Part shown: positions 6,548 to 64,000 of the stretch, one piece after another | Layout: every line of letters starts with the position of its first letter | Position numbering within the stretch: the stretch's first letter is position 1 | From: Planctomycetota bacterium | GTDB taxonomy: Bacteria > Planctomycetota > Phycisphaerae > Sedimentisphaerales > Anaerobacaceae | DNA: 64,000 bases | Direction of reading: 5' to 3' | Assembly (NCBI GenBank): GCA_030605475.1 | Contig: JAUWIG010000043.1 | Span: 20,405-84,404 of the forward strand | Translations under genes and position numbers: made by a program | Notes under the pieces: model-generated | Seen by the model: the letters and a program-made list of their open reading frames with translations, nothing else | Told to the model about the DNA's origin: nothing | The model's database searches: none

Positions 6548-6700
6548 AAAAGTGCGCAAAAAAGCGCACTTTTTAGCATTTTTTCTCATTTTCTTGCACT
6601 TTTTGCTCACTTTCTTGCACTTTCTTGCATTTTTTACTCACTTTTTTTGCATTTTCTTGCAATTTTTTGCAGTTTTTTACCACAACTTGCGCATTTATGC
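6548..6700 (+). repeat. hairpin plus degenerate tandem array (about 11 units, 10-12 nt period, core TTKCWTGCA), copy 1 of 2
   Basis: AAAAGTGCGC-AAAAAA-GCGCACTTTT hairpin at 6548-6573. It is followed by ttctca/ttcttgca/tttgctca/ttcttgca/ttcttgca/tttactca/ttttgca/ttcttgca/ttttgca units and ends in acttgcgcattt. A homologous array lies at 44952-45098. Confidence 0.8.
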
Positions 6701-44058: not shown

Positions 44059-44215
44059 AATAACCTCCTTTTCCTTTAACTATGTCAATATTACTCTACA
44101 GTTGTAGAGATTACAAGAAAAAAATAAAAATTTTTTAATTTTTTTTTGCTCTGTTATCTCCCAGGAAGCTTACCCTTAGCCTCACAGCAGAAAACCCGGT
44201 TGTCGTTATTTTTAG

Positions 44216-44243
44216 CCCCGCAATTTGTTGCGGGGTTATTTTA
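44216..44243 (+). terminator. orphan rho-independent terminator-like hairpin
   Basis: CCCCGCAA-TTTG-TTGCGGGG followed by TTATTTTAT. No annotated plus-strand gene lies upstream. Confidence 0.45.
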
Positions 44244-44269
44244 TAATCTCAAACTGACCGATTCGTACC

Positions 44270-44312
44270 GTCATCCCTGCGAAAGCAGATGTAGGGTGGG
44301 GCTTGCCCCACC
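44270..44312 (+). repeat. composite REP-like module (GTCATCCCTGCGAAAGCAG plus GGTGGGGC-TT-GCCCCACC palindrome)
   Basis: The same two-part architecture occurs in inverted orientation at 48850-48903. The palindrome half occurs alone at 35962-35980. Confidence 0.65.
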
Positions 44313-44951
44313 ATCAGCATCTTTTCACCCATCCCCGCTACGGCGACGCATACGAAATCCGCACACTTGGACTTGAGCCAAGTCCTGAGCCAAGTCCTGA
44401 GCGCAGCCAGCACTGTTTACCATGAGCGAGCTTAGTGAGTCGAATGGAGCGAAGCCTGCACTGAGTGCCGAAGTGTCGAAGGAGCAGCCGAAGGCTCTCA
44501 AAAATCGTCAATAGTAAATAGCCAATAGTAAATTGAAAATGCCTCCATCCTCCGTCATCCGTCGTCTGTCGTCCCTCCTCCATCCTTCGTCTCCTACTCT
44601 CTGCGTCCTCTGTGTGCTCAGTGGCAAAGATTTCGACAAATCATATCCGCAATACCCAGTCCTCACATCGAGCCTTGTCCGCCGTAGGCGGAATCCAGCA
44701 TCCCGCAACTCGCATCCCCGTCAAAATAAAAAATTCCCACCTTCGACATTCGATATTCCTTGTTCGATATTTGATATTCCCTTCCCTCCTCCGTCGTCCA
44801 TCATCCCTCGCCCGCAACCCGTAACGAGTTTACCCTGAGTGAAAGAGTTTACCCTGAACCAAAGCGAAGGGAAGGGCAACCCGCAACAACAACTACCAAC
44901 CGAAGCAGAGCAAAGTCCTGAGCGAAGCGCAGCGTAGTCGAAGGGTTGCCC

Positions 44952-45098
44952 AGTGCGCGCAAAAAAGCGCACTTTTTCGCATTTTTTTGCACTTTCTTGC
45001 ACTTTTTTGCATTTTCCTGCAATTTCTTGCAATTTTTACTCACTTTTTTGCAATTTCCTGCAGTTTCCTGCAGTTTTTTAAACGCCACTTGCGCAAAT
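44952..45098 (+). repeat. hairpin plus degenerate tandem array (core TTKCWTGCA), copy 2 of 2
   Basis: GTGCGC-gcaaaaaa-GCGCAC followed by tttttgca/ttcttgca/ttttgca/ttcctgca/ttcttgca/tttactca/ttttgca/ttcctgca/ttcctgca units, ending in cacttgcgcaaat. It is homologous to 6548-6700. Confidence 0.8.
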
Positions 45099-45269
45099 GA
45101 TTGAATTTTCCCTCTCCTATTCCACCCAAAATCCCCACATTATCAACACCTACCAACAGCCGGATTTAACATTTTCGAAGGTTCTAAAAATCCCTCACAT
45201 TCACAGCCCCAAGCAGAAAAGCGGTTCGCTTTTGCGTAAAATCCCCCCTATCAATCCAAAATCCCTGAA

Positions 45270-45312
45270 ACAAAATAAAAAAGCCAGATTCTAAATACAA
45301 CAGAATCTGGCT
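45270..45312 (-). terminator. rho-independent terminator (minus strand)
   Basis: 11-bp perfect stem AGCCAGATTCT / AGAATCTGGCT with a 9-nt loop, followed on the minus strand by TTTTTTATTTTG. Confidence 0.6.
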
Positions 45313-45629
45313 TCGGAGGAGGGTGATGAAAAGCTAAATATAGACTAATCGCTTTCAAAAAAGCGACTGTTCGCTTTTAACTGTCCTTAATTGTGTAATC
45401 GAACAAACGGCAAAAATTTCTTTAAGAAAAATTTGCAAAACTTTACACTTTTTTTGTGGAAAATCAAACCTCTAATCGTAAAAATCTAAATTTTTTTGCT
45501 ATTTTCCCACAAAATAGCCGAATCTGGCCCCAAAAGCCACGTTATTTTACGCTCGATAAACCACCTGTGTTCTCATATTTTAACCAATAACCTGTTATTT
45601 CTTTTTATTTACTCTTCAGAAAGGCTGAT

Positions 45630-45833: not shown

Positions 45834-46964
45834 TTATTCTATGACGTGGATGTTTTTCTTTCTGCACATATCCTTGAATATCTTCGGCCAAACGGTGGCA
45901 CTGACCTCTCCAATGTGGGCTTTTTTGAGCAGTAACATAAAGGTACGGGACTGGCCGATGCCTCCGCCGACGCTGAGCGGGATTTCGTTGTTCAGGATTG
46001 CCTGGTGGTACGGGAGCTTCAGGAAATCAAGCTGGCCGGAAATCTCCAGCTGCTTTTTGAGCGTTTCGGCATTAACGCGGATACCCATTGATGTCAGCTC
46101 GTGGCGGCGCTTTGTCACCGGGTTCCAGACAAGGATGTCACCGTTAAGGCCGTGCATAGGTCTGCCGTCGTCGGAGGTAGTCTCAGTGACCCAGTCATCG
46201 TAGTCAGCGGCCCTGAGTTCGTGGGGGTAGCCGTCCTTGAGCACCCAGCCAATCCCGTAGATGAACATCGCGCCGAGGTCTCTGGCAATTTCTGTTTCTC
46301 GCTGCTTGCGCGGCAGGTCCAGGTAGCGGTCAAGTATGCCTTCGGCGTGTATGAAAGTGAGCTTGTCGGGCAGGTCTGGGTATTTATCTGTTTTTAGCTG
46401 GGGGAAAAGTTGCTGGACGTGGGCCTCAGCGCCTTTGATGACCTTCCAGATTTTCTCTACGATTTGCCTTAGGAACTGGAGGTTTCGCTGGTCTTTTGTT
46501 ATCGCCAGCTCCCAGTCCCACTGGTCCACATAGGCGCTGTGGTCGTGGTCGAGGAAGTAGTCCTTGCGGACGGCGCGCATATCAGTGAGCAGGCCCTCTC
46601 CGATGTCCATTTCGAACTGCTTGAGGGCGATGCGCTTCCACTTGGTCGCGGCTTGCACGACCTGGGCGTCGATTGGGTTCTTGTCGTGGTCGTTTGAGAT
46701 GTGGAACCCGATTGGGGTCCGTGAGCCATCACGGTCGAGGAGGTCGTTGATGCCGCTTTCGACGTCTACGATAAGAGGAACCGTAACGCGAATGAGGTTA
46801 AGCTCTTTGCAGAGATTGGCCTCGATGTAGTCTTTCACAGCATAGATGGCATTTTGCGTTTGCTTTGGGGACAGTAGAGAAGTGTAATCCTGTGGTAGGA
46901 TTTTCTCCAGCTCGGTATAGTCGCCAATACCTGGCCCGGCCAGGTCTGCTTTCTTGTCTGCCAT
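45834..46964 (-). CDS. asnA: aspartate--ammonia ligase (asparagine synthetase A)
   Basis: HSAYVDQWDWE and class-II synthetase-like blocks. The start is set at ATG 46964 with AGGAGAC 7 nt upstream. Confidence 0.8.
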   Translation of the reverse strand: MADKKADLAGPGIGDYTELEKILPQDYTSLLSPKQTQNAIYAVKDYIEANLCKELNLIRVTVPLIVDVESGINDLLDRDGSRTPIGFHISNDHDKNPIDAQVVQAATKWKRIALKQFEMDIGEGLLTDMRAVRKDYFLDHDHSAYVDQWDWELAITKDQRNLQFLRQIVEKIWKVIKGAEAHVQQLFPQLKTDKYPDLPDKLTFIHAEGILDRYLDLPRKQRETEIARDLGAMFIYGIGWVLKDGYPHELRAADYDDWVTETTSDDGRPMHGLNGDILVWNPVTKRRHELTSMGIRVNAETLKKQLEISGQLDFLKLPYHQAILNNEIPLSVGGGIGQSRTFMLLLKKAHIGEVSATVWPKIFKDMCRKKNIHVIE

Positions 46965-47081
46965 TGTGTTGTCTCCTGAGTGTTTTGTGGATAGGCACAT
47001 TCAATATAACATAGCTGGTCATTACTTAGGTGCGTTGCAAATAATAATCCCGGTGTTGATGCTTTTCAAGATTATTTTAGT
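46902..47081 (-). repeat. direct repeat copy A (asnA first about 21 codons, RBS and promoter-proximal block)
   Basis: Block 1 at 46902-46977 and block 2 at 47037-47081 are near-identical to 48645-48720 and 48778-48822. Confidence 0.85.
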
Positions 47082-47175
47082 ACAAAATCATATTTTATCT
47101 GGTATTTACTGAATATCACAGCAAAGATACAAACATTGCTCTATCTAAGCTTGGGACTAAAGCGGTCGGACGAGT

Positions 47176-48597
47176 CTACAAGTAGCCAAGACTCTTGAGT
47201 TTGTTGATTTCTTCCGGAGTGAGTGGTGGAAGCGAAGAGCCTGCTTTGCTAATACCCATAAAACTTTTCAGTTGTGCAAACATCGAATCGACGAGTGGGG
47301 TGTGCTTAGAGACGATATCAATTTTCTCCTTCGGGTCATTCTGCAGGTCAAAAAGCCGTTTTTCTTTTGTCAATTTATTATAATGGAGCTTATAGCGAGG
47401 ATGACGGACGGCACGTTTGATGTCATGCTTTACATCGTATTCCTGGGGCACTACGCTCTCTTTGCTGCCCTCGGCAAAGATGTAGCGCCGGCCCAGTTGA
47501 GTATCACTTTTTTCCCATAACCGGCACAGGTCGATACCGTCCATCGAATAAGGTATAGCAATGCCGAGCAGAGAGAGTACGGTGGGCATAACATCTACAA
47601 GGGAAATGATGTTGCTGAGGCGTTTTGGTTGGCCAAGCCCGGGTCCCCGCATGATGAGAGGGATGTGGATGAGTTCCTGGTACTGGGTTTGGCTGTGCAG
47701 GACTCCACCGTGGTCCAGGAATTCCTCGCCGTGGTCAGAAGTGACGATGATTAGCGAATTATCAAGTAGTCCCCTGGTTTCAAGGAGCTTTAGCAGCCGG
47801 GCGATGCCGTCGTCGAGCTGGCGAATGCTCGCGTCGTAGAGGTCAATCAGGTGCTCAGCGTCCACTTGGTTTAGCGAGACCAAATTCTTACGGAAAAGGG
47901 ATAGTTGCACGGTAGTGCCGTCTGCAACTCCCTTGTATGGACGGACGAACTGCTTCTCATAACGCAGCGTTGAACTATAATCGCTGTGGACGTCGTAGTA
48001 ATGCAGGAATAGGAAAAACGGCTGACTGCTGTTTTTCGATAGCCATTTTACGGTGTGGTGCTCAACTTCCGATGGCATCCACAGGTCAGGGATTTCCTCC
48101 ACGTAGGTAAAATCATCGAATCCTCTATCAAGCCCCCATTTTCGGCTGAGATATATGGAATTGACAACCGTTGCGGTTGAGAAGTCGTGTTCCTTAAGAA
48201 CATCGGCCAAAGTTACGACGTCGGTCGGCAAGTATTTGTCGAGTGATTTTAGACCGTGCCGATTAGGGTACAATCCGGTCAGCATGGACCCATGGGAGGG
48301 CAAGGTCCAGGGCGAAGTCGCCGTAACGTCCTCAAACAGCAGGCCCTGGGAGGCCAATTTGTCGAGTGTGGGTGAAGTGGGCCTTTGGTAGCCGTAGCAG
48401 CCGAGATGGTCGGCACGTAAAGTGTCAATCGAGATGAGTATGATGTTGGTCGGTCTTATATCAGCTTGCTTTTTCCCGCAGCCTCCCAGCCAAAGGCTAC
48501 CCGGCAGACCCGCCGCCAGACCACCGTAGAGTCCGTACTTCAACATCTCGCGCCGAGTCAGACCTCTGCTGTAAGTTCGCTTTCTACTCATACCCAT
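47176..48597 (-). CDS. sulfatase-like hydrolase (alkaline-phosphatase superfamily) lipoprotein, Thr variant of the active-site motif
   Basis: Tat-like/lipoprotein leader (TRREMLKYG..WLGGCG). SIDTLRADHLGCYGY and SDHGEEF blocks. The active-site position reads T-L-P-S-H instead of C/S-x-P-x-R. Confidence 0.8.
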   Translation of the reverse strand: MGMSRKRTYSRGLTRREMLKYGLYGGLAAGLPGSLWLGGCGKKQADIRPTNIILISIDTLRADHLGCYGYQRPTSPTLDKLASQGLLFEDVTATSPWTLPSHGSMLTGLYPNRHGLKSLDKYLPTDVVTLADVLKEHDFSTATVVNSIYLSRKWGLDRGFDDFTYVEEIPDLWMPSEVEHHTVKWLSKNSSQPFFLFLHYYDVHSDYSSTLRYEKQFVRPYKGVADGTTVQLSLFRKNLVSLNQVDAEHLIDLYDASIRQLDDGIARLLKLLETRGLLDNSLIIVTSDHGEEFLDHGGVLHSQTQYQELIHIPLIMRGPGLGQPKRLSNIISLVDVMPTVLSLLGIAIPYSMDGIDLCRLWEKSDTQLGRRYIFAEGSKESVVPQEYDVKHDIKRAVRHPRYKLHYNKLTKEKRLFDLQNDPKEKIDIVSKHTPLVDSMFAQLKSFMGISKAGSSLPPLTPEEINKLKSLGYL

Positions 48598-48644
48598 TCT
48601 GCCTTACTCTCAACATTATCAAGTGCCAAGCCTGTTCTCAGGAC

Positions 48645-48822
48645 TTTCTCCAGCTCGGTATAGTCGCCAATGCCTGGCCCAGCCAGGTCTGCTTTCTTGT
48701 CTGCCATTGTGTTGTCTCCTAAATGATTCGGGGCAAGCCATCCACAAGCTTCGCTTGAGGCTGCCACCCTACCGACTGCAAATAATAATCCCAGCGTTGA
48801 TGTTTTTCAAGATTATTTTAGT
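48645..48822 (-). repeat. direct repeat copy B (duplicated asnA 5' end and promoter-proximal block) upstream of the sulfatase-like gene
   Basis: It contains the ATG at 48707 plus 21 asnA-identical codons (MADKKADLAGPGIGDYTELEK). The sequence then diverges and stops, overlapping the sulfatase-like start codon. Confidence 0.85.
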
Positions 48823-48849
48823 TAAAAACTCCTTGTAAAATCCCGAGGA

Positions 48850-48903
48850 ATCGGGGCAAGCGTGGGGCCAAATATTTTTGGGACCCGCCTTCACGGGAAT
48901 GAC
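48850..48903 (-). repeat. composite REP-like module, inverted orientation
   Basis: The reverse complement reads gtcattcccgtgaaggcggg...ggccccacgcttgccccgat, the same two-part layout as 44270-44312. Confidence 0.55.
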
Positions 48904-49004
48904 ATTTTTGTAGTGGCTAAGAGATTGGTTTTGCGATAATATATTTGCCATCTTAATCCGAGTGTCTGGATTGTACGTTATCAGGTAGCCGTTAAGGTAA
49001 ATTT

Positions 49005-57949: not shown

Positions 57950-58475
57950 ATTTTCTGCCCTCAAAAACCTCTGCAACTATATCGCGGCGTTGGTCTCTGT
58001 CAAGAAAATTAAGCTGGAGAAAAATTAGCCGCTGAGTGCGCCGAGGACGCAGAGGAGTTGAATAACCAAAGGGCAAAAGCAGAAAGGCGAAAAGGGTGAG
58101 AAGTCATCCCGGTGTGCCAGGATAACGTCGTCGCGGTGGTGGGCAATAAAACACGGCAGGGGCGGGGGCGAATATGAGATTGCGGCGTTCCGCCGTAGGC
58201 GGACTTTCAGGGCTGCACTGCTCAACGGCGGAGGAGAAGGTGTTTGCAATGGCGACAAAGGGCAAGGGCGATTCGCGAATTGCCATTACGGTTTTTATGG
58301 GAAATGTTTTTTTTGGGCAAAAGCGGCTGCTATGAAAATAGGAAAAATAGCTGTTGTAGCAAATTTTTTCTAAATAAACTTCTTGCGGAATATTTGTAAC
58401 AACCTGCAAATGCAGGGGTTACGAGCTTTCGTACAGTTTTACTGGGAAGTTTTGTAGCGTCCCATAATGTTTTTC

Positions 58476-58505
58476 TTGACGAGAAGATGGGTGGTCTGGT
58501 AGAGT
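58476..58505 (+). promoter_or_regulatory. sigma70-like promoter with extended -10 (TTGACG-18 nt-TAGAGT, TG at -15/-14)
   Basis: The same architecture and spacing occur at 63582-63611, upstream of the second PEP-CTERM gene. Confidence 0.5.
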
Positions 58506-58879
58506 GAAAGAGATGAATGCGTGCGCGCTTTGTTAGTGCAGCCTGTACGAACTCTGCGTTTTTGAGGTGAAAAAGCTATTGTATTGAGTGAGGTACAGAG
58601 TTGTAGTGAGAGTTTTGCGCTTTGGAATTAAGGTTTTTATACCTCAATAATTTCCGTCTCAGACTGGCTTCTGAAGGAAGAGGGTAAAAGGAAAGGAGGG
58701 TAAGGATAGAGGGTAAATTCGAGTTTTAAGACGTTGGAAGTTGTTTTGCCGAAGGTTGCGGGTTGTTTGAGACAAGCACGAAGCATGGTTAAGATGCTTG
58801 CCGAAAGCAGCAATGTTTTGGCGAAGAGCCAAAAAGCGTTTTGTAGTTTTAGTTTGTGAGAAGAAGAAGGAGGAATATT
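58506..58879 (+). promoter_or_regulatory. conserved long 5' leader (about 370 nt) of a PEP-CTERM gene, candidate cis-regulatory RNA
   Basis: Blocks are shared with 63612-63991, including gcttctgaaggaag..gagggtaaggatagagggtaaat and gacaagcacgaagc. A TTTTGGC-GAAGA-GCCAAAA hairpin with a U-rich tail (58816-58855) lies just before the AGGAGG RBS. Confidence 0.5.
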
Positions 58880-59737
58880 ATGTGTAGAAAATTGTTTCTT
58901 TTAATTTTGGTACTAGGTCTGGCTGCGAGTGCATCTGCTCAGATTAACTATACATGGGTCGGTGGTATATCCCCGCGGTGGACGAAAGCGGGCAACTGGG
59001 ATTTGGGCATCGTCCCGGGCGCAAGCGATACAGCCGACATCCGGCCGGGTTCAGTGGCTGACCCGATTATTCATGCGGGTACGCCTCTTCCCTATGACAC
59101 GGCTCTGAATCGCCACATTGATATATTCTTTATTAACTCGGGCATAGTGCATGTTAAGTCAGGCGGATACCTCCACTCCAGAAGGGGTTATGCCGGCAAT
59201 ACAGGAGCTACGTATGGATTTACCGGGACGGCGAGGTTACGAGTATGCGAAGGCACTGTAACAACCAATGATGACTTTCAGGTTGGCCGCAGGGAAGACG
59301 GTCTTGTTGAACTGCTGCATGAAAGTGCACTGTTTGACATTGGCGGTAAATTCAGAGTCGGCGGCAGCAAGAATAGCGAGACCTCTACCGGTTTCGTACA
59401 TCTGTATGCCGGGACTATTACCTGCGGTACGTTCTTACCGTATGATGATAACCCGGTTACTGGTGACCCAGGCGCCCGTATCGATATCAGGGCAGGTCAG
59501 TTGATAATAGACAGCGACCCGAACAATGCGGTGGGTGTAGTCTCAGACGCTGTCCTCGCAGGTCGGATTGGTGCCTACGGCCGTTACTACGGCGACTGCG
59601 GATTCGGCACTGTGTTCGATATAACCGTAGAGGAGGTCGCTGGTGTAGTGACGGTAACGGCAGTCCCGGAGCCGGCAACGATAGCTCTACTTGGTCTTGG
59701 TGGATTGGTTCTGTTTCGCAGGAAGCGACGATTATAG
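58880..59737 (+). CDS. PEP-CTERM sorting-domain secreted protein
   Basis: Signal peptide MCRKLFLLILVLGLAASASA. C-terminal VPEPATIALLGLGGLVLFRRKRRL. ATG 58880 is preceded by AGGAGG. Confidence 0.85.
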   Translation: MCRKLFLLILVLGLAASASAQINYTWVGGISPRWTKAGNWDLGIVPGASDTADIRPGSVADPIIHAGTPLPYDTALNRHIDIFFINSGIVHVKSGGYLHSRRGYAGNTGATYGFTGTARLRVCEGTVTTNDDFQVGRREDGLVELLHESALFDIGGKFRVGGSKNSETSTGFVHLYAGTITCGTFLPYDDNPVTGDPGARIDIRAGQLIIDSDPNNAVGVVSDAVLAGRIGAYGRYYGDCGFGTVFDITVEEVAGVVTVTAVPEPATIALLGLGGLVLFRRKRRL

Positions 59738-60718: not shown

Positions 60719-60764
60719 TAGCGGATAGCATATAGCGGATAGGGTATAGTGTAAGGGTGAGACT

Positions 60765-61385
60765 ATGAAGTTGAATTGGGCCAGTCGGATCACGATTATT
60801 CGGATACTGTTGATAATACCATTTGTCAGTTGTATGTTGAAGATAAACGATGCTGCGCTTAGCGAGACAATGCGCAGCGCGATGCGGTATGCTTCAATCA
60901 TTATTTTTTTGGTTATGGCGGGCAGCGACGTGGTTGACGGTTACTTAGCTCGCAAGAACAGAGAGGTTACAAGGTTTGGTTCGTTTCTGGATCCGCTGGC
61001 GGACAAGCTTCTTATGACCTGCGCGTGCCTGCTGCTGACGTCGAAGCGAGCAGGTGTCGCGGGTTTTCTACTGCCGCCAACGGTGGTGGTTTTGGTAATC
61101 GGCAAAGACATGTTTTTGCTAATTGGTTTTGTCATTGTTTATTTTGTCACTTCACAGGTTCTTATTGTTCCTGCGTTAATCGGCAAGGTAGCAACCACGC
61201 TGCAGTTGTCGATGGTGGCGGCGATTCTGCTCGCTCCAGAGATTAGTCGTTTTGTGCCGGGCTGGATTTGGTTTTTGCGGGTTCTGTGGTGGTCGGCGGC
61301 GGGAACGGCCATTTTGGCAACCCTTATTTACATTCACACCGGAAGTCGCTATATTGAAGAGTATGAACAAAATATCAGCGGATAG
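60765..61385 (+). CDS. CDP-alcohol phosphatidyltransferase family protein
   Basis: DVVDGYLARKNREVTRFGSFLDPLADK, which is the D(x)2DG(x)2AR...G(x)3D(x)3D motif. Confidence 0.8.
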   Translation: MKLNWASRITIIRILLIIPFVSCMLKINDAALSETMRSAMRYASIIIFLVMAGSDVVDGYLARKNREVTRFGSFLDPLADKLLMTCACLLLTSKRAGVAGFLLPPTVVVLVIGKDMFLLIGFVIVYFVTSQVLIVPALIGKVATTLQLSMVAAILLAPEISRFVPGWIWFLRVLWWSAAGTAILATLIYIHTGSRYIEEYEQNISG

Positions 61386-61447
61386 CGAGCAGCGTATAGC
61401 GGATAGATTGCTTCGCTTCATCCGCTCGCAAAGACTAAGGACCAAAT

Positions 61448-62689: not shown

Positions 62690-62793
62690 TTAAATTAAAA
62701 GTTGGTTAAATGGTTAAATGGTTAAATGGTTAATTGGTAATTGACGAGTTGCTGATTGCCAATTAACCACTCACTACTCACCAATCACATTAT

Positions 62794-63318: not shown

Positions 63319-63581
63319 GGTGTTGCGGGTGCGTGATGCCCTTCGACAAGCTCAGGGTAAACTCGTTGTGAGTTGCGTATATCGTGGTTGTGGTGACTGG
63401 CGGTAAAACGCCGATAAAACCGGGGCGAAAGCGGCGGTTGCGAAAGAAAATAGCTGCTTCAAAAAAATTTTTTTAGGTGATTTTTTCTTCGTAGAGTGCT
63501 TATAACGGCTTGTAAATGCAGCAGTTACGCGTTTTCAGGCGATTTTAATGAAAAATTATCTAACATCCTATAATATTTCTC

Positions 63582-63611
63582 TTGACGAGAATATAGCTAA
63601 TTTGGTAAAGT
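63582..63611 (+). promoter_or_regulatory. sigma70-like promoter with extended -10 (TTGACG-18 nt-TAAAGT)
   Basis: Paralogous to 58476-58505. Confidence 0.5.
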
Positions 63612-63991
63612 TAAATAGATGTATGTGTGGGCTTTGCCCTTGTAGTATGGGTAACTTCCACGGTTTTTGAGGTAAAATAAGGAGAGTGAGTGAAGTGCGG
63701 AGCTGTGGTGAGGGCTCTGTGCTTCGGAGGTGCGGTTTTTAAAGTTCAATTTACATCAGAATTAGCTTCTGAAGGAAGGAGGGTAAGGATAGAGGGTAAA
63801 TTTAAGCTTTGAAGCCGCTTTGTCAAAGTTAGCATGTTGTTTTGGACAAGCACGAAGCGTGGTGAAGGTACTTTGGCGTAGGGCCAAAGAGTTTTCGAGG
63901 CCTGTAGGAAACAACAGATGTTTTGGCGAAGAGCCAAAAAGCGTTTTGTAGTTTTAGTTAGTTTGTGAGAAGAAGAAGAAGGAGGAATATT
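63612..63991 (+). promoter_or_regulatory. conserved long 5' leader, second copy
   Basis: Homologous to 58506-58879. It has the same terminal hairpin (63921-63939), U-rich tail and RBS context. Confidence 0.5.
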
Positions 63992-64000
63992 ATGTGTAGA
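63992..64000 (+). CDS. start of a second PEP-CTERM-type gene (3 codons, truncated by the window end)
   Basis: aggaggaatattATGTGTAGA is identical to the start context of the 58880 gene (MCR...). Confidence 0.5.

What the first reader, a model, noticed from the sequence alone, without database searches (positions are those of the whole stretch)
58403..58879. Paralogous promoter plus ~370-nt structured leader upstream of two PEP-CTERM genes, candidate novel cis-regulatory RNA
The regions 58403-58879 and 63508-63991 are clearly homologous although non-coding. Both have identical promoter geometry (TTGACG-18 nt-TAGAGT/TAAAGT with TG at -15/-14). Both share blocks such as tttttgaggt(g/a)aaa, gagtgag..g.ggtgag, gcttctgaaggaag(g)agggtaaggatagagggtaaat and gacaagcacgaagc. 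The last ~75 nt are nearly identical. That stretch holds a TTTTGGC-GAAGA-GCCAAAA hairpin followed by agcgttttgtagttttagtt and then gagaagaagaaggaggaatattATGTGTAGA. A hairpin with a U-rich tail directly in front of the RBS looks like an attenuator or expression platform, and the conserved upstream blocks could be a ligand- or protein-binding aptamer. Non-conserved segments between the blocks, including an indel of one gagggtaaaaggaaag unit, argue for selection on the blocks rather than recent duplication alone. I do not recognise it as any known riboswitch class.
Basis: seen in the sequence. Interest (0 to 1): 0.7.

Follow-up and report, generated by a model that had tools for sequence, protein, structure and literature searches.

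The report
Conserved structured leader of PEP-CTERM genes
The two look-alike non-coding stretches are copies of a promoter plus a roughly 370-base folded mRNA leader that precedes a family of exosortase-sorted surface-protein genes in several uncultured bacteria; it matches no described RNA family, probably tunes mRNA stability or translation, and does not look like a transcription terminator switch.

Summary
Window 58340-58888 and 63440-64000 are homologous (81% column identity). They share a TTGACG-N18-TA(G/A)AGT promoter with TG at -15/-14 and a nearly identical last ~75 nt.

It is more than a local duplication. Related leaders precede related PEP-CTERM genes (proteins down to 29% identity, nearly all starting MCRKLFLL) on 10 or more metagenomic contigs. 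They also precede the neighbouring large Laminin_G_3-domain (LamG) gene.

A core of about 80-130 nt is conserved:
- a long hairpin, P1 (GUUGUUU-GA-GACARGC...GCYUGUC-GA-AAACAAC), with a purine-rich loop (UGGUGAAGGU);
- one to three UUUUGGC/GCCAAAA hairpins;
- then a U-tract, a perfect Shine-Dalgarno (SD) sequence and the AUG.

About 95% of base-pair cells are kept, against 36-54% when partners are slid. Roughly 18% of cells are G·U, which places the fold on the + strand as RNA. Changes on both sides of a pair are few.

No Rfam family matches. No conserved terminator, uORF or sigma-54 box was found.

The attenuator reading is not supported, and the aptamer reading is untested. My best reading is a post-transcriptional stability/translation leader, with an operator-like palindrome upstream of the promoter. 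I rate it a new member of a known kind, of moderate interest.

The parts
58396..58421 (.). Imperfect palindrome GTAACAACCTGCAAATGCAGGGGTTA, about 55 bp upstream of the -35 hexamer. Candidate binding site for a dimeric transcription factor (copy A).
   Evidence: Only two matches in the window, against 0 expected. Conserved as GTAACnnCTTGTAnATRCAGnnGTTA in L036, L039, L048, L060, L061, L062 and L051. Its distance to the -35 varies, which is why I read it as DNA-level. The function is inferred.
58476..58505 (+). Sigma-70-type promoter of copy A: TTGACG, 18-nt spacer with TG at -15/-14, TAGAGT. An A/T-rich conserved block (CCCATAATGTTTTTC) lies just upstream.
   Evidence: Promoter scan. The same geometry and much of the spacer (ATAKRGSTAATYTGGTAAAGT) recur in homologues. 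The transcription start site (about 58512) is inferred, not measured.
58512..58879 (+). Roughly 370-nt 5' leader of PEP-CTERM gene A (whole element).
   Evidence: No conserved ORF on either strand. Homologous to copy B and to leaders in other assemblies.
58596..58617 (+). Hairpin M1 (CAGAGUU...AGUUUUG), weak in copy A.
   Evidence: RNAalifold on the four window-type leaders predicts a 14-bp helix here with G·U/A-U/G-C exchanges. In copy A alone the MFE fold uses an alternative pairing.
58674..58717 (+). Purine-rich tandem units (AAGGAAGAGGGTAA x3.1) containing the SD-like AAGGAGGGUAA, with no start codon after them.
   Evidence: TRF. The GGAGGGTAAGGATAGAGGGTAAA block is identical in both copies. 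Related AAGGAGGR blocks occur in L060, L048 and L045. RNAalifold pairs GGAGG with the upstream CUUCU.
58762..58811 (+). P1 long hairpin of copy A: GUUGUUU-GA-GACAAGCA / UGCUUGCC-GA-AAGCAGC, with a 2x2 GA/GA internal loop and an apical loop containing UGGUUAAGAU (58786-58795).
   Evidence: Covariance-model (CM) hit 58760-58838, 61.7 bits, E about 7e-12.
58816..58834 (+). Hairpin hp2: UUUUGGC-GAAGA-GCCAAAA.
   Evidence: Invariant position in all homologues, with structure-preserving changes elsewhere (UUCUGG/CCAGAA in L051, UUUCUGGC/GUCAGAAA in L060, UUUUGCG/CGCAAAA in L041).
58835..58879 (+). U-rich linker, purine tract and SD (GGAGGA at 58869-58874).
   Evidence: The consensus UUUUU-GAAGGAGGAGUAUU-AUG recurs across homologues and paralogues.
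58880..59737 (+). PEP-CTERM protein gene A (285 aa, MCRKLFLL...).
   Evidence: TIGR02595, 27.3 bits against a cut-off of 16.
63502..63527 (.). Palindrome, copy B (ATAACGGCTTGTAAATGCAGCAGTTA).
63582..63611 (+). Promoter of copy B: TTGACG-18-TAAAGT with TG.
63618..63991 (+). Roughly 375-nt 5' leader of PEP-CTERM gene B.
   Evidence: MFE z-score -3.0 against shuffles.
63695..63722 (+). Hairpin M1 of copy B (GUGCGGAGC...GCUCUGUGC).
63772..63801 (+). Purine-rich SD-like block, copy B (two units).
63836..63915 (+). P1 of copy B: GUUGUUU-UG-GACAAGC / GCCUGUA-GG-AAACAAC. It encloses UGGUGAAGGU (63860-63869) and the nested hairpin hp1, CUUUGGC-GUAGG-GCCAAAG (63871-63889).
   Evidence: CM hit 63834-63943, 80 bits..
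63921..63939 (+). Hairpin hp2 of copy B.
63940..64000 (+). U-rich linker, SD (63981-63986) and the start of PEP-CTERM gene B (ATG at 63992; the gene runs off the window; product P0003, 280 aa).

Best explanation
The two regions are copies of one expression cassette. The cassette precedes a family of small, exosortase-sorted (PEP-CTERM) surface-protein genes in an uncultured bacterial lineage.

DNA level:
- An operator-like palindrome lies upstream of a near-consensus extended -10 sigma-70-type promoter.

RNA level:
- The transcript begins with a leader of about 300-400 nt that folds into conserved helices.
- The 5' half holds hairpin M1 and purine-rich SD-like repeats.
- The invariant 3' core holds a long hairpin, P1, with a GA/GA internal loop and a purine-rich SD-like apical loop. 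One to three UUUUGGC/GCCAAAA hairpins follow.
- About 35-50 nt further on come a U-tract, a perfect SD (AAGGAGGA) and the AUG. The first eight codons are nearly invariant even at synonymous sites.

Proposed mechanism:
- I think the leader acts after transcription initiation. It would set mRNA lifetime and ribosome loading, acting as a structured stabiliser/translation leader for abundant surface proteins.
- On/off control would be exerted mainly at the promoter, through the palindrome.
- It does not work by premature intrinsic termination.

Shown: homology beyond the window, the promoter geometry, the conserved + strand RNA helices, and the absence of a conserved terminator, uORF, sigma-54 box or Rfam match.

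Inferred: the transcription start site, that the palindrome binds a regulator, that the SD-like blocks bind 30S subunits, and that the net effect is on stability and translation.
For: 1. Spread beyond the window. Leaders homologous to both copies precede homologous genes in L034, L035, L049, L060 (window type), L036/L039/L040/L050/L051/L061/L062 (second type), and L043, L045, L048. L036, L039 and L051 keep the synteny of copy B (ribBA, lipoprotein, then the PEP-CTERM gene).
2. Recovery in non-seed sequences. A covariance model of the core finds both window copies (61.7 and 80 bits). It also finds four non-seed copies upstream of the next gene: the Laminin_G_3 gene in L040, and partial or uncalled genes starting ATGTG in L060, L048 and L051 (40-63 bits). 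Each has its own TTGACG-N15-TGGTATAAG promoter, and the upstream gene ends in a genuine terminator.
3. Structure. RNAalifold on the seven second-type leaders independently predicts P1, hp1 and hp2, with almost no broken pairs. On an unsupervised MAFFT alignment of 15 leaders, 94.8% of cells pair, against 37-52% when partners are slid. One pair splits AU:7/GC:7. On the 19-sequence CM alignment, 95.9% pair.
4. RNA on the + strand. 62 of 345 cells are G·U (summed) and would be A·C mismatches on the other strand. The series UUUUGG/CCAAAA, then UUUUGG/CCAGAA, then UUCUGG/CCAGAA passes through a G·U intermediate.
5. Signs of high expression. The promoter is near consensus with an extended -10. The SD is perfect, with a U-tract just 5' of it, in all paralogues. 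The second-type leaders have a hairpin near the predicted 5' end and fold with z = -4.5.
6. Precedent. Haft et al. 2006 note that most PEP-CTERM genes are single-gene operons with large upstream regions. They add that the classes outside Proteobacteria remain undescribed.
Against: - There are no expression data. The transcription start site, transcript abundance and half-life are unknown.
- Stem sequences are conserved more strongly than pairing alone requires (hp2, and the 5' strand of P1), while hairpin loops vary freely. That pattern would suit a sequence-specific trans-acting factor or alternative pairings, meaning a regulatory element rather than a constitutive one.
- Carriage of the same core by several genes in one genome is also typical of riboswitch or regulon control.
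- The SD-like blocks may be paired (CUUCU with GGAGG) rather than free to bind ribosomes.
- The predicted pairing of the SD with codons 5-8 is no stronger than in composition-matched controls.
- Copy A alone does not fold better than shuffles (z = -1.06).
Confidence: 0.45

Rival explanations
1. Translational operator for a trans-acting factor. A protein (for example a CsrA-like or other global regulator) or a small RNA would recognise the conserved P1/hp2 module, or the SD/start region. It would thereby co-regulate a regulon of PEP-CTERM surface proteins.
For: - The same core precedes at least two gene classes per genome.
- Stem sequences, the GA/GA internal loop and the UGGUGAAGG loop are conserved at the sequence level.
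- The 37 nt around the SD and AUG are nearly invariant between proteins only about 30% identical.
- Several GGA motifs lie in purine-rich stretches.
Against: - No candidate regulator gene was identified.
- Hairpin loops, the usual protein contacts, vary freely (GAAGA, UUGUA, GUGUA, GAACA). One even carries a 23-nt insertion.
- GGA motifs are not consistently placed in loops.
Confidence: 0.2
2. A new riboswitch class. P1 with its internal and apical loops would be a ligand-binding aptamer, for example for a second messenger. The hp2/U-tract/SD region would be a translational expression platform.
For: - The structured core is conserved, has conserved unpaired nucleotides and matches no Rfam family.
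- It is multi-copy upstream of functionally linked genes.
- There is precedent: c-di-GMP riboswitches precede PEP-CTERM genes in Methylophaga GP59.
- UUUUGG-like tracts next to the SD could compete for the GCCAAAA strand in some members.
Against: - The core is essentially one irregular hairpin whose apical part varies from 16 to about 70 nt, plus simple hairpins. It has no multi-helix junction.
- Copy A has a shortened loop in which the conserved motif carries two substitutions.
- No alternative pairing is conserved across members.
- Only 4-5 pairs show changes on both sides.
Confidence: 0.15
3. No RNA-level function. The similarity would reflect paralogy (duplication or gene conversion of promoter-proximal DNA), with selection only on the promoter and ribosome-binding site.
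For: - The two window copies flank paralogous genes 71% identical.
- Most substitutions in helices are one-sided transitions, which U/G-rich strands tolerate by chance.
- Contigs often break in the leader, which suggests repeats.
Against: - The core survives between leaders whose proteins are only 29-34% identical and whose other leader parts have diverged beyond alignment.
- Pairing is 95% against 36-54% in slid controls.
- An inserted C-G pair appears on both strands of hp2 in L060, and G-C swaps to C-G in L041.
Confidence: 0.08
4. Transcription attenuator. The UUUUGGC hairpin with its U-rich tail would be a regulated intrinsic terminator.
For: The lenient scan lists 58816-58834 and 63921-63939 as terminator-like, with tail AGCGTTTTGT.
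Against: - The stem is 7 bp with 3 G-C pairs, -8.4 kcal/mol.
- The U's sit on the 5' side of the stem and A's on the 3' side.
- In the second-type leaders the tail is GGCGAGAACUUGAUG, and in others UAAUGAAAUUG or CCUAAUUAAUC.
- Genuine terminators in the same contigs look quite different: GGGCCTATACCG...CGGTATAGGCCCTTTTTTT.
Confidence: 0.03
5. DNA operators. The TTTTGGC-N5-GCCAAAA palindromes would be binding sites for a dimeric repressor downstream of the promoter.
For: The palindrome is perfect and its half-sites are highly conserved.
Against: - The spacer between half-sites ranges from 3 to about 30 nt.
- Substitutions go through G·U (A·C on the other strand), and both arms change together. 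That fits RNA pairing and not a fixed-geometry DNA site.
Confidence: 0.03

Closest known systems
c-di-GMP-I (GEMM-I) riboswitches upstream of PEP-CTERM genes, e.g. Methylophaga nitratireducenticrescens GP59 (PMC12530212)
   Same: A structured leader RNA present in several copies in front of single PEP-CTERM genes. It shows that this gene class can be controlled through its 5' UTR.
   Different: No match to any Rfam model, RF01051 and RF01786 included, even at E up to 10. The architecture also differs: one long irregular hairpin plus simple A/U-rich hairpins.
Proteobacterial 'PEP-CTERM box': PrsR enhancer site plus sigma-54 promoter (Haft et al. 2006, PMC1569441)
   Same: A conserved non-coding element shared by the large upstream regions of many single-gene PEP-CTERM operons in one genome. 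An upstream site for a dedicated regulator is plausible here too (the palindrome).
   Different: The promoter here is sigma-70-like with an extended -10, not -24/-12. No TGGCAC-N5-TTGCW-like site lies in either leader. Most of the conserved element is transcribed RNA structure rather than a DNA motif. The lineage is not proteobacterial in gene content or synteny (inference).
5' mRNA stabilisers and non-initiating SD elements: STAB-SD of Bacillus thuringiensis cry3A, the ompA 5' UTR, long leaders of S-layer genes (from my own knowledge, not tested here)
   Same: A long 5' UTR on a probably abundant secreted or surface protein, with hairpins, SD-like sequences that have no start codon after them, and a strong ribosome-binding site.
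   Different: Those elements are short and simple. This one has a conserved multi-helix core shared across paralogues. No half-life data exist, and the SD-like block may be base-paired.
fourU / ROSE RNA thermometers (from my own knowledge)
   Same: Weak A-U/G·U-rich helices and U-tracts next to the SD.
   Different: The U-tracts are not consistently predicted to pair with the SD. SD accessibility does not differ from composition-matched controls.
Orphan cis-regulatory RNA motifs found by comparative genomics (Weinberg-type motifs in Rfam)
   Same: Defined by conservation upstream of one gene class, with stems supported by compatible substitutions and function unknown.
   Different: This one is not among the 4227 Rfam 15 families.

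Membership tests
Intrinsic-terminator attenuator | A stable G+C-rich stem followed immediately by a U-tract, conserved among homologues. | tested here: not met
   The stem has 7 bp with 3 G-C pairs, -8.4 kcal/mol. Its tail starts AGCG. In homologues the tails are GGCGAGAACUUGAUG, UAAUGAAAUUG or CCUAAUUAAUC. Only the lenient scan flags the window copies.
Intrinsic-terminator attenuator | A mutually exclusive anti-terminator structure, conserved. | tested here: not met
   No alternative pairing is shared by all members.
Riboswitch (any known class) | Match to a curated covariance model. | tested here: not met
   Rfam 15 at the gathering threshold on the whole window finds only a tRNA. At E up to 10 on both leaders it returns only noise.
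Riboswitch (generic) | A conserved aptamer fold supported by covariation. | tested here: inconclusive
   Helices are kept in 95-96% of cells, against 36-54% when slid. Only 4-5 pairs change on both sides, and most of those stem from few events.
Riboswitch (generic) | Ligand binding and a ligand-dependent expression platform. | not testable with these tools
   Needs in-line probing and reporter assays.
Sigma-54/PrsR PEP-CTERM box | A -24 GG / -12 GC promoter motif upstream of the gene. | tested here: not met
   No TGGCACN5TTGCW-like site (up to 2 mismatches) lies within 58300-58900 or 63400-64000. The promoter present is -35/-10 type.
Leader-peptide (uORF) attenuation or translational coupling | A conserved short ORF in the leader. 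| tested here: not met
   The AUG in GAUGUUUUGGC is absent in L060, L061, L048, L045 and L043. AUGGAUGCUCGUUGA occurs only in the second-type leaders. Frames are broken by indels.
5' UTR stabiliser / STAB-SD-like element | A non-initiating SD-like sequence and/or 5'-proximal hairpin in a long leader. | tested here: met
   AAGGAGGGUAA at 58693-58703 and 63776-63786 has no start codon after it. Equivalent blocks occur in L060, L048 and L045. The second-type leaders have a hairpin near the predicted 5' end.
5' UTR stabiliser / STAB-SD-like element | Increases mRNA half-life through 30S binding. | not testable with these tools
   Needs rifampicin-chase and toeprinting experiments.
PEP-CTERM/exosortase substrates (the downstream genes) | A C-terminal PEP motif, a transmembrane helix and a basic tail (TIGR02595). 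| tested here: met
   P0001 scores 27.3 bits, P0003 23.3 and P0006 25.4, against a cut-off of 16. The sequence ...VPEPATIALLGLGGLVLFRRKRRL is.

The most novel reading that the evidence does not exclude
The P1/hp2 core is the sensor of a previously unknown riboswitch or RNA-protein switch. It would co-ordinate a regulon of exosortase-sorted surface proteins in an uncultured, probably PVC-group, lineage. It could respond to a second messenger such as c-di-GMP, as GEMM-I does for PEP-CTERM genes in Methylophaga, but with an unrelated fold.
Probability: 0.15. Interest if true: 0.8.

Novelty: new member of a known kind. Interest (0 to 1): 0.5.

Why it matters
PEP-CTERM/exosortase substrates are very common in sediment and biofilm bacteria. 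How they are controlled outside Proteobacteria is largely unknown. Haft et al. (2006) explicitly left the large upstream regions of non-proteobacterial PEP-CTERM genes unexplained.

This work defines a concrete element that can now be tested:
- window coordinates for every part;
- a covariance model;
- about 20 members across two gene classes.

With these, one can ask whether the surface proteins are regulated through their mRNA leader (stability, translation, or a ligand or protein switch) and through an upstream operator.

If the leader proves to be only a strong-expression cassette, it is still a useful marker. It flags abundant surface proteins and offers a portable promoter/UTR for an uncultured lineage.

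Tried and rejected
1. Genome-collection scan with the 19-mer hairpin. It returned 33 hits, all matching no more than 20-27 nt and none sharing the rest of the leader.
2. Exact-protein look-ups of the window's own proteins (P0001, P0003, the lipoprotein). None is on record, so the rest of gene B and its downstream region could not be fetched.
3. Rfam at gathering and at permissive thresholds. Nothing relevant turned up.
4. SD sequestration by codons 5-8 (UUGUUUCUUUU). It is predicted in many members (SD unpaired probability 0.2-0.4). It is no stronger than when the coding tail is shuffled, and it is absent in the LamG-gene paralogues. It remains unproven as an explanation for the invariant synonymous sites of MCRKLFLL.
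5. A switch between hp2 and a hairpin formed by its 3' strand with the U-tract. It is seen in some members only, with small energies.
6. uORFs. The candidates are MFWRRAKK... from the AUG in GAUGUUUUGGC, and MDAR* in the P1 3' strand. Neither is conserved across leader types.
7. Minus-strand ORFs (58637-58813, 58659-58832, 63746-63937). They share only the residues encoded by the conserved hairpin and then go out of frame.
8. A terminator-like hairpin in leader B (63717-63735 plus UUUUU). It is half G·U, and only about half of the homologues keep the U-run.
9. A sigma-54 promoter. None was found.
10. RNAalifold on the gap-rich 15-sequence alignment. It recovered only hp2. P1 needed either the subgroup alignment or a structure that I supplied, so the P1 counts on A3 and A4 lean toward my model.
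11. Taxonomy. It could not be established with the remaining tools. 'PVC/Planctomycetota-like' is my guess from gene content only.
Full report
**1. Observation**

The two regions are homologous.
- MAFFT of 58340-58900 against 63440-64000 gives 81% column identity. Several gaps are not multiples of three (1, 2, 4 and 7 nt among them), so no ORF is conserved on either strand.
- Both copies have TTGACG, an 18-nt spacer with TG before the -10, then TAGAGT or TAAAGT (58476-58505; 63582-63611).
- The last ~75 nt are 98-100% identical apart from a 7-nt indel.
- The hairpin 19-mer and the 23-nt purine block each occur exactly twice in 64 kb. For the hairpin pattern about 0.03 matches (at up to 3 mismatches) were expected by chance, and for the purine block 0.
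- The extra unit in copy A is one repeat of a 13-14-nt tandem array at 58674-58717.
- Homology begins further upstream than reported. It includes a palindrome at 58396-58421 / 63502-63527. It also continues into the genes, whose ATGs are at 58880 and 63992.
- Both products carry a PEP-CTERM domain above the TIGR02595 cut-off.

**2. It is not confined to this genome**

A protein search with gene A found the paralogue on the same 86-kb NCBI contig (71% identity). It also found relatives down to 29% identity. Nearly all start MCRKLFLL.

Fetching their contigs, plus a metagenome scan for the start-codon 20-mer, gave upstream regions from at least 10 distinct assemblies.
- L034, L035 and L049 carry near-copies of leader B.
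- L060 (protein 29% identical) carries a diverged window-type leader.
- L036, L039, L040, L050, L051, L061 and L062 carry a second leader type.
- L043, L045 and L048 carry further variants.
- In L036 and L039 the gene sits after CDP-alcohol phosphatidyltransferase, ribBA, a small lipoprotein and a divergent TPR gene. The shorter L051 contig shows the TPR gene upstream as well. Leaving the TPR gene aside, this is the position of copy B in the window. Copy B is therefore the ancestral locus and copy A a lineage-specific duplicate.
- The genome-collection scan with the hairpin 19-mer gave only chance hits.

**3. Anatomy shared by all members**

- (a) A palindrome, GTAACnnCTTGTAnATRCAGnnGTTA, lies at a variable distance upstream of the -35.
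- (b) An A/T-rich block, AACATCCTATAAYATTTTT, sits just upstream of the promoter.
- (c) The promoter is TTGACR-N15-TGGTAAAGT, and much of its spacer is conserved.
- (d) The 5' half of the leader differs between types. In the window type it contains hairpin M1 and the purine-rich SD-like repeats.
- (e) The core begins with P1: 5' GUUGUUU-GA-GACRRGY ... RCYYGUY-GA-RRACRAC 3'. P1 usually has a 2x2 GA/GA internal loop. It encloses a purine-rich loop (UGGUGAAGGU; variants UGAGGAGGU, GGAAGAGAGAGGA) and sometimes a nested hairpin.
- (f) One to three hairpins, UUUUGGC-loop-GCCAAAA, follow.
- (g) Then come a U-tract and AAGGAGGA(G/A)UAUU-AUG-UGU-AGA-AAA-UUG-UUU-CUU-UUR.

**4. Evidence for RNA structure**

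- RNAalifold on the seven second-type leaders, with no input from me, predicts P1 (two segments), hp1 and hp2 with almost no broken pairs.
- MAFFT of 15 trimmed leaders aligned both P1 strands across types without guidance.
- On that alignment my structure has 94.8% of 345 cells paired, against 37-52% when the 3' partners are slid by 1-3 columns. Five pairs change on both sides, including one split AU:7/GC:7.
- A covariance model built from it scores copy A at 61.7 bits and copy B at 80 bits. It finds no other site in the window.
- The model also finds four sequences that were not in the seed, upstream of the next gene in L060, L040, L048 and L051 (40-63 bits). In L040 that gene is the large Laminin_G_3 gene.
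- Those copies have their own TTGACG-N15-TGGTATAAG promoter, and the upstream gene ends in a genuine terminator.
- On the 19-sequence model alignment, 95.9% of cells pair.
- 62 of 345 cells are G·U (summed). They would be A·C mismatches on the other strand.
- hp2 evolves from UUUUGG/CCAAAA (L039) through UUUUGG/CCAGAA (L036) to UUCUGG/CCAGAA (L051).
- hp2 gains a C-G pair on both arms in L060 and is UUUUGCG/CGCAAAA in L041.
- Its loop ranges from 3 nt to one with a 23-nt nested hairpin.

Together these points argue for + strand RNA helices, not DNA operators.

Caveats:
- The sequences are few and related.
- Most changes are one-sided transitions, which U/G-rich strands tolerate easily.
- The structure for P1 on A3 and A4 was supplied by me.
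- Copy A alone does not fold better than shuffles (z = -1.06). Copy B (z = -3.0) and L036 (z = -4.5) do.

**5. What it is not**

- Not any Rfam 15 family.
- Not a sigma-54/PrsR box (Haft 2006).
- Not a conserved terminator. The hairpin has its U's 5' and its A's 3', has only 3 G-C pairs (-8.4 kcal/mol) and lacks a U-tail in most homologues.
- Not a leader peptide. Candidate uORFs are not conserved.
- No conserved switch was found. Pairing of the SD with codons 5-8 is predicted but is no stronger than in tail-shuffled controls. Pairing of the hp2 3' strand with the U-tract occurs in only some members.

**6. Most likely mechanism**

- The cassette combines a near-consensus extended -10 promoter, a long structured leader and non-initiating SD-like blocks. 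It also has hairpins just before a U-tract and a perfect SD.
- The first codons are almost invariant, even between proteins only about 30% identical.
- The simplest reading is a leader that sets mRNA stability and ribosome loading for abundant exosortase-sorted surface proteins. Transcriptional control would come from a factor bound at the palindrome (confidence 0.45).
- Two facts keep a trans-factor operator (0.2) and a new riboswitch (0.15) alive. The same core precedes several genes per genome. Stem sequences are conserved beyond what pairing requires.
- c-di-GMP riboswitches upstream of PEP-CTERM genes in Methylophaga are a precedent for the riboswitch reading.
- Pure paralogy without RNA function (0.08), attenuation (0.03) and DNA operators (0.03) are unlikely.

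**7. Novelty and verdict**

- Full-text searches combining PEP-CTERM with 'riboswitch' or 'untranslated region' found no description of this element.
- It is a new candidate cis-acting RNA motif, a new member of a known kind. It fills a gap that Haft et al. noted for non-proteobacterial PEP-CTERM genes.
- Interest is 0.5.

Noticed in passing
window 6554-6677 and 44947-45078; L036 7640-7740: Arrays of a 10-nt periodic unit TTGCAnTTTTY (9 register-shifted matches to a 51-nt reference, 61-92% identity). The reverse-complement unit AAAGTGCAAAA also occurs upstream of the leader promoter in L036. This may be phased A/T-tract bending DNA or a repeated protein-binding site.
   Followed up: no
window 44059-45620: About 1.5 kb with no long ORF. 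It contains pyrimidine-rich CCTCCRTCNTC stretches (44540-44600, 44780-44810) and the array described above.
   Followed up: no
window 46850-47180 and 48590-48930 (minus strand): Two adjacent paralogous genes (N-terminus MADKKADLAGPGIGDYTELEK) share their first ~30 codons and an upstream block, ACTAAAATAATCTTGAAAAGCATCAACACCGGGATTATTATTTGCA. The block is probably a shared promoter. This is a second case of paralogous 5' regions in the window. The listed start of ORF 47176-48597 is probably too far downstream.
   Followed up: partly
window 60719-60742, 61377-61406, 62703-62738: Short tandem repeats in the spacers between the housekeeping genes: TAGCGGA x3.4, AGCGGAT x4.3 and TGGTTAAA x4.5.
   Followed up: no
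L036 9179-9245; L040 1081-1145; L048 1190-1235; L051 3870-3910; L060 2085-2125: The PEP-CTERM genes end with a canonical terminator (GGGCCTATACCG...CGGTATAGGCCC + T7-8), conserved across contigs. It contrasts usefully with the leader hairpins.
   Followed up: partly
L048 1590-1640: The hp2 loop carries a 23-nt G+C-rich nested hairpin (CCCCGCUCCUCGGAGGGGCUGGG), so the loop is not constrained.
   Followed up: yes
L052-L059 (contigs carrying P0016): Many high-coverage contigs (up to 86x) end either about 245-305 nt or only 32 nt upstream of the ATG. This suggests assembly breaks at a promoter/leader part that is repeated in those genomes.
   Followed up: no
L049 1-222: The gene start occurs on both strands within 222 nt of the contig end. 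This is probably a fold-back assembly artefact.
   Followed up: no
L036 8200-8215, L039, L061 and L048 (P1 3' strand): A mini-ORF, AUG-(G/A)AU-GC(U/C)-CGU-U(G/A)A (MDAR*/MNAR*), sits 6 nt after AAGGUGA in the second-type leaders. Both synonymous and stop-codon changes preserve it. It is absent from the window-type leaders, so I judged it incidental to P1 pairing.
   Followed up: partly
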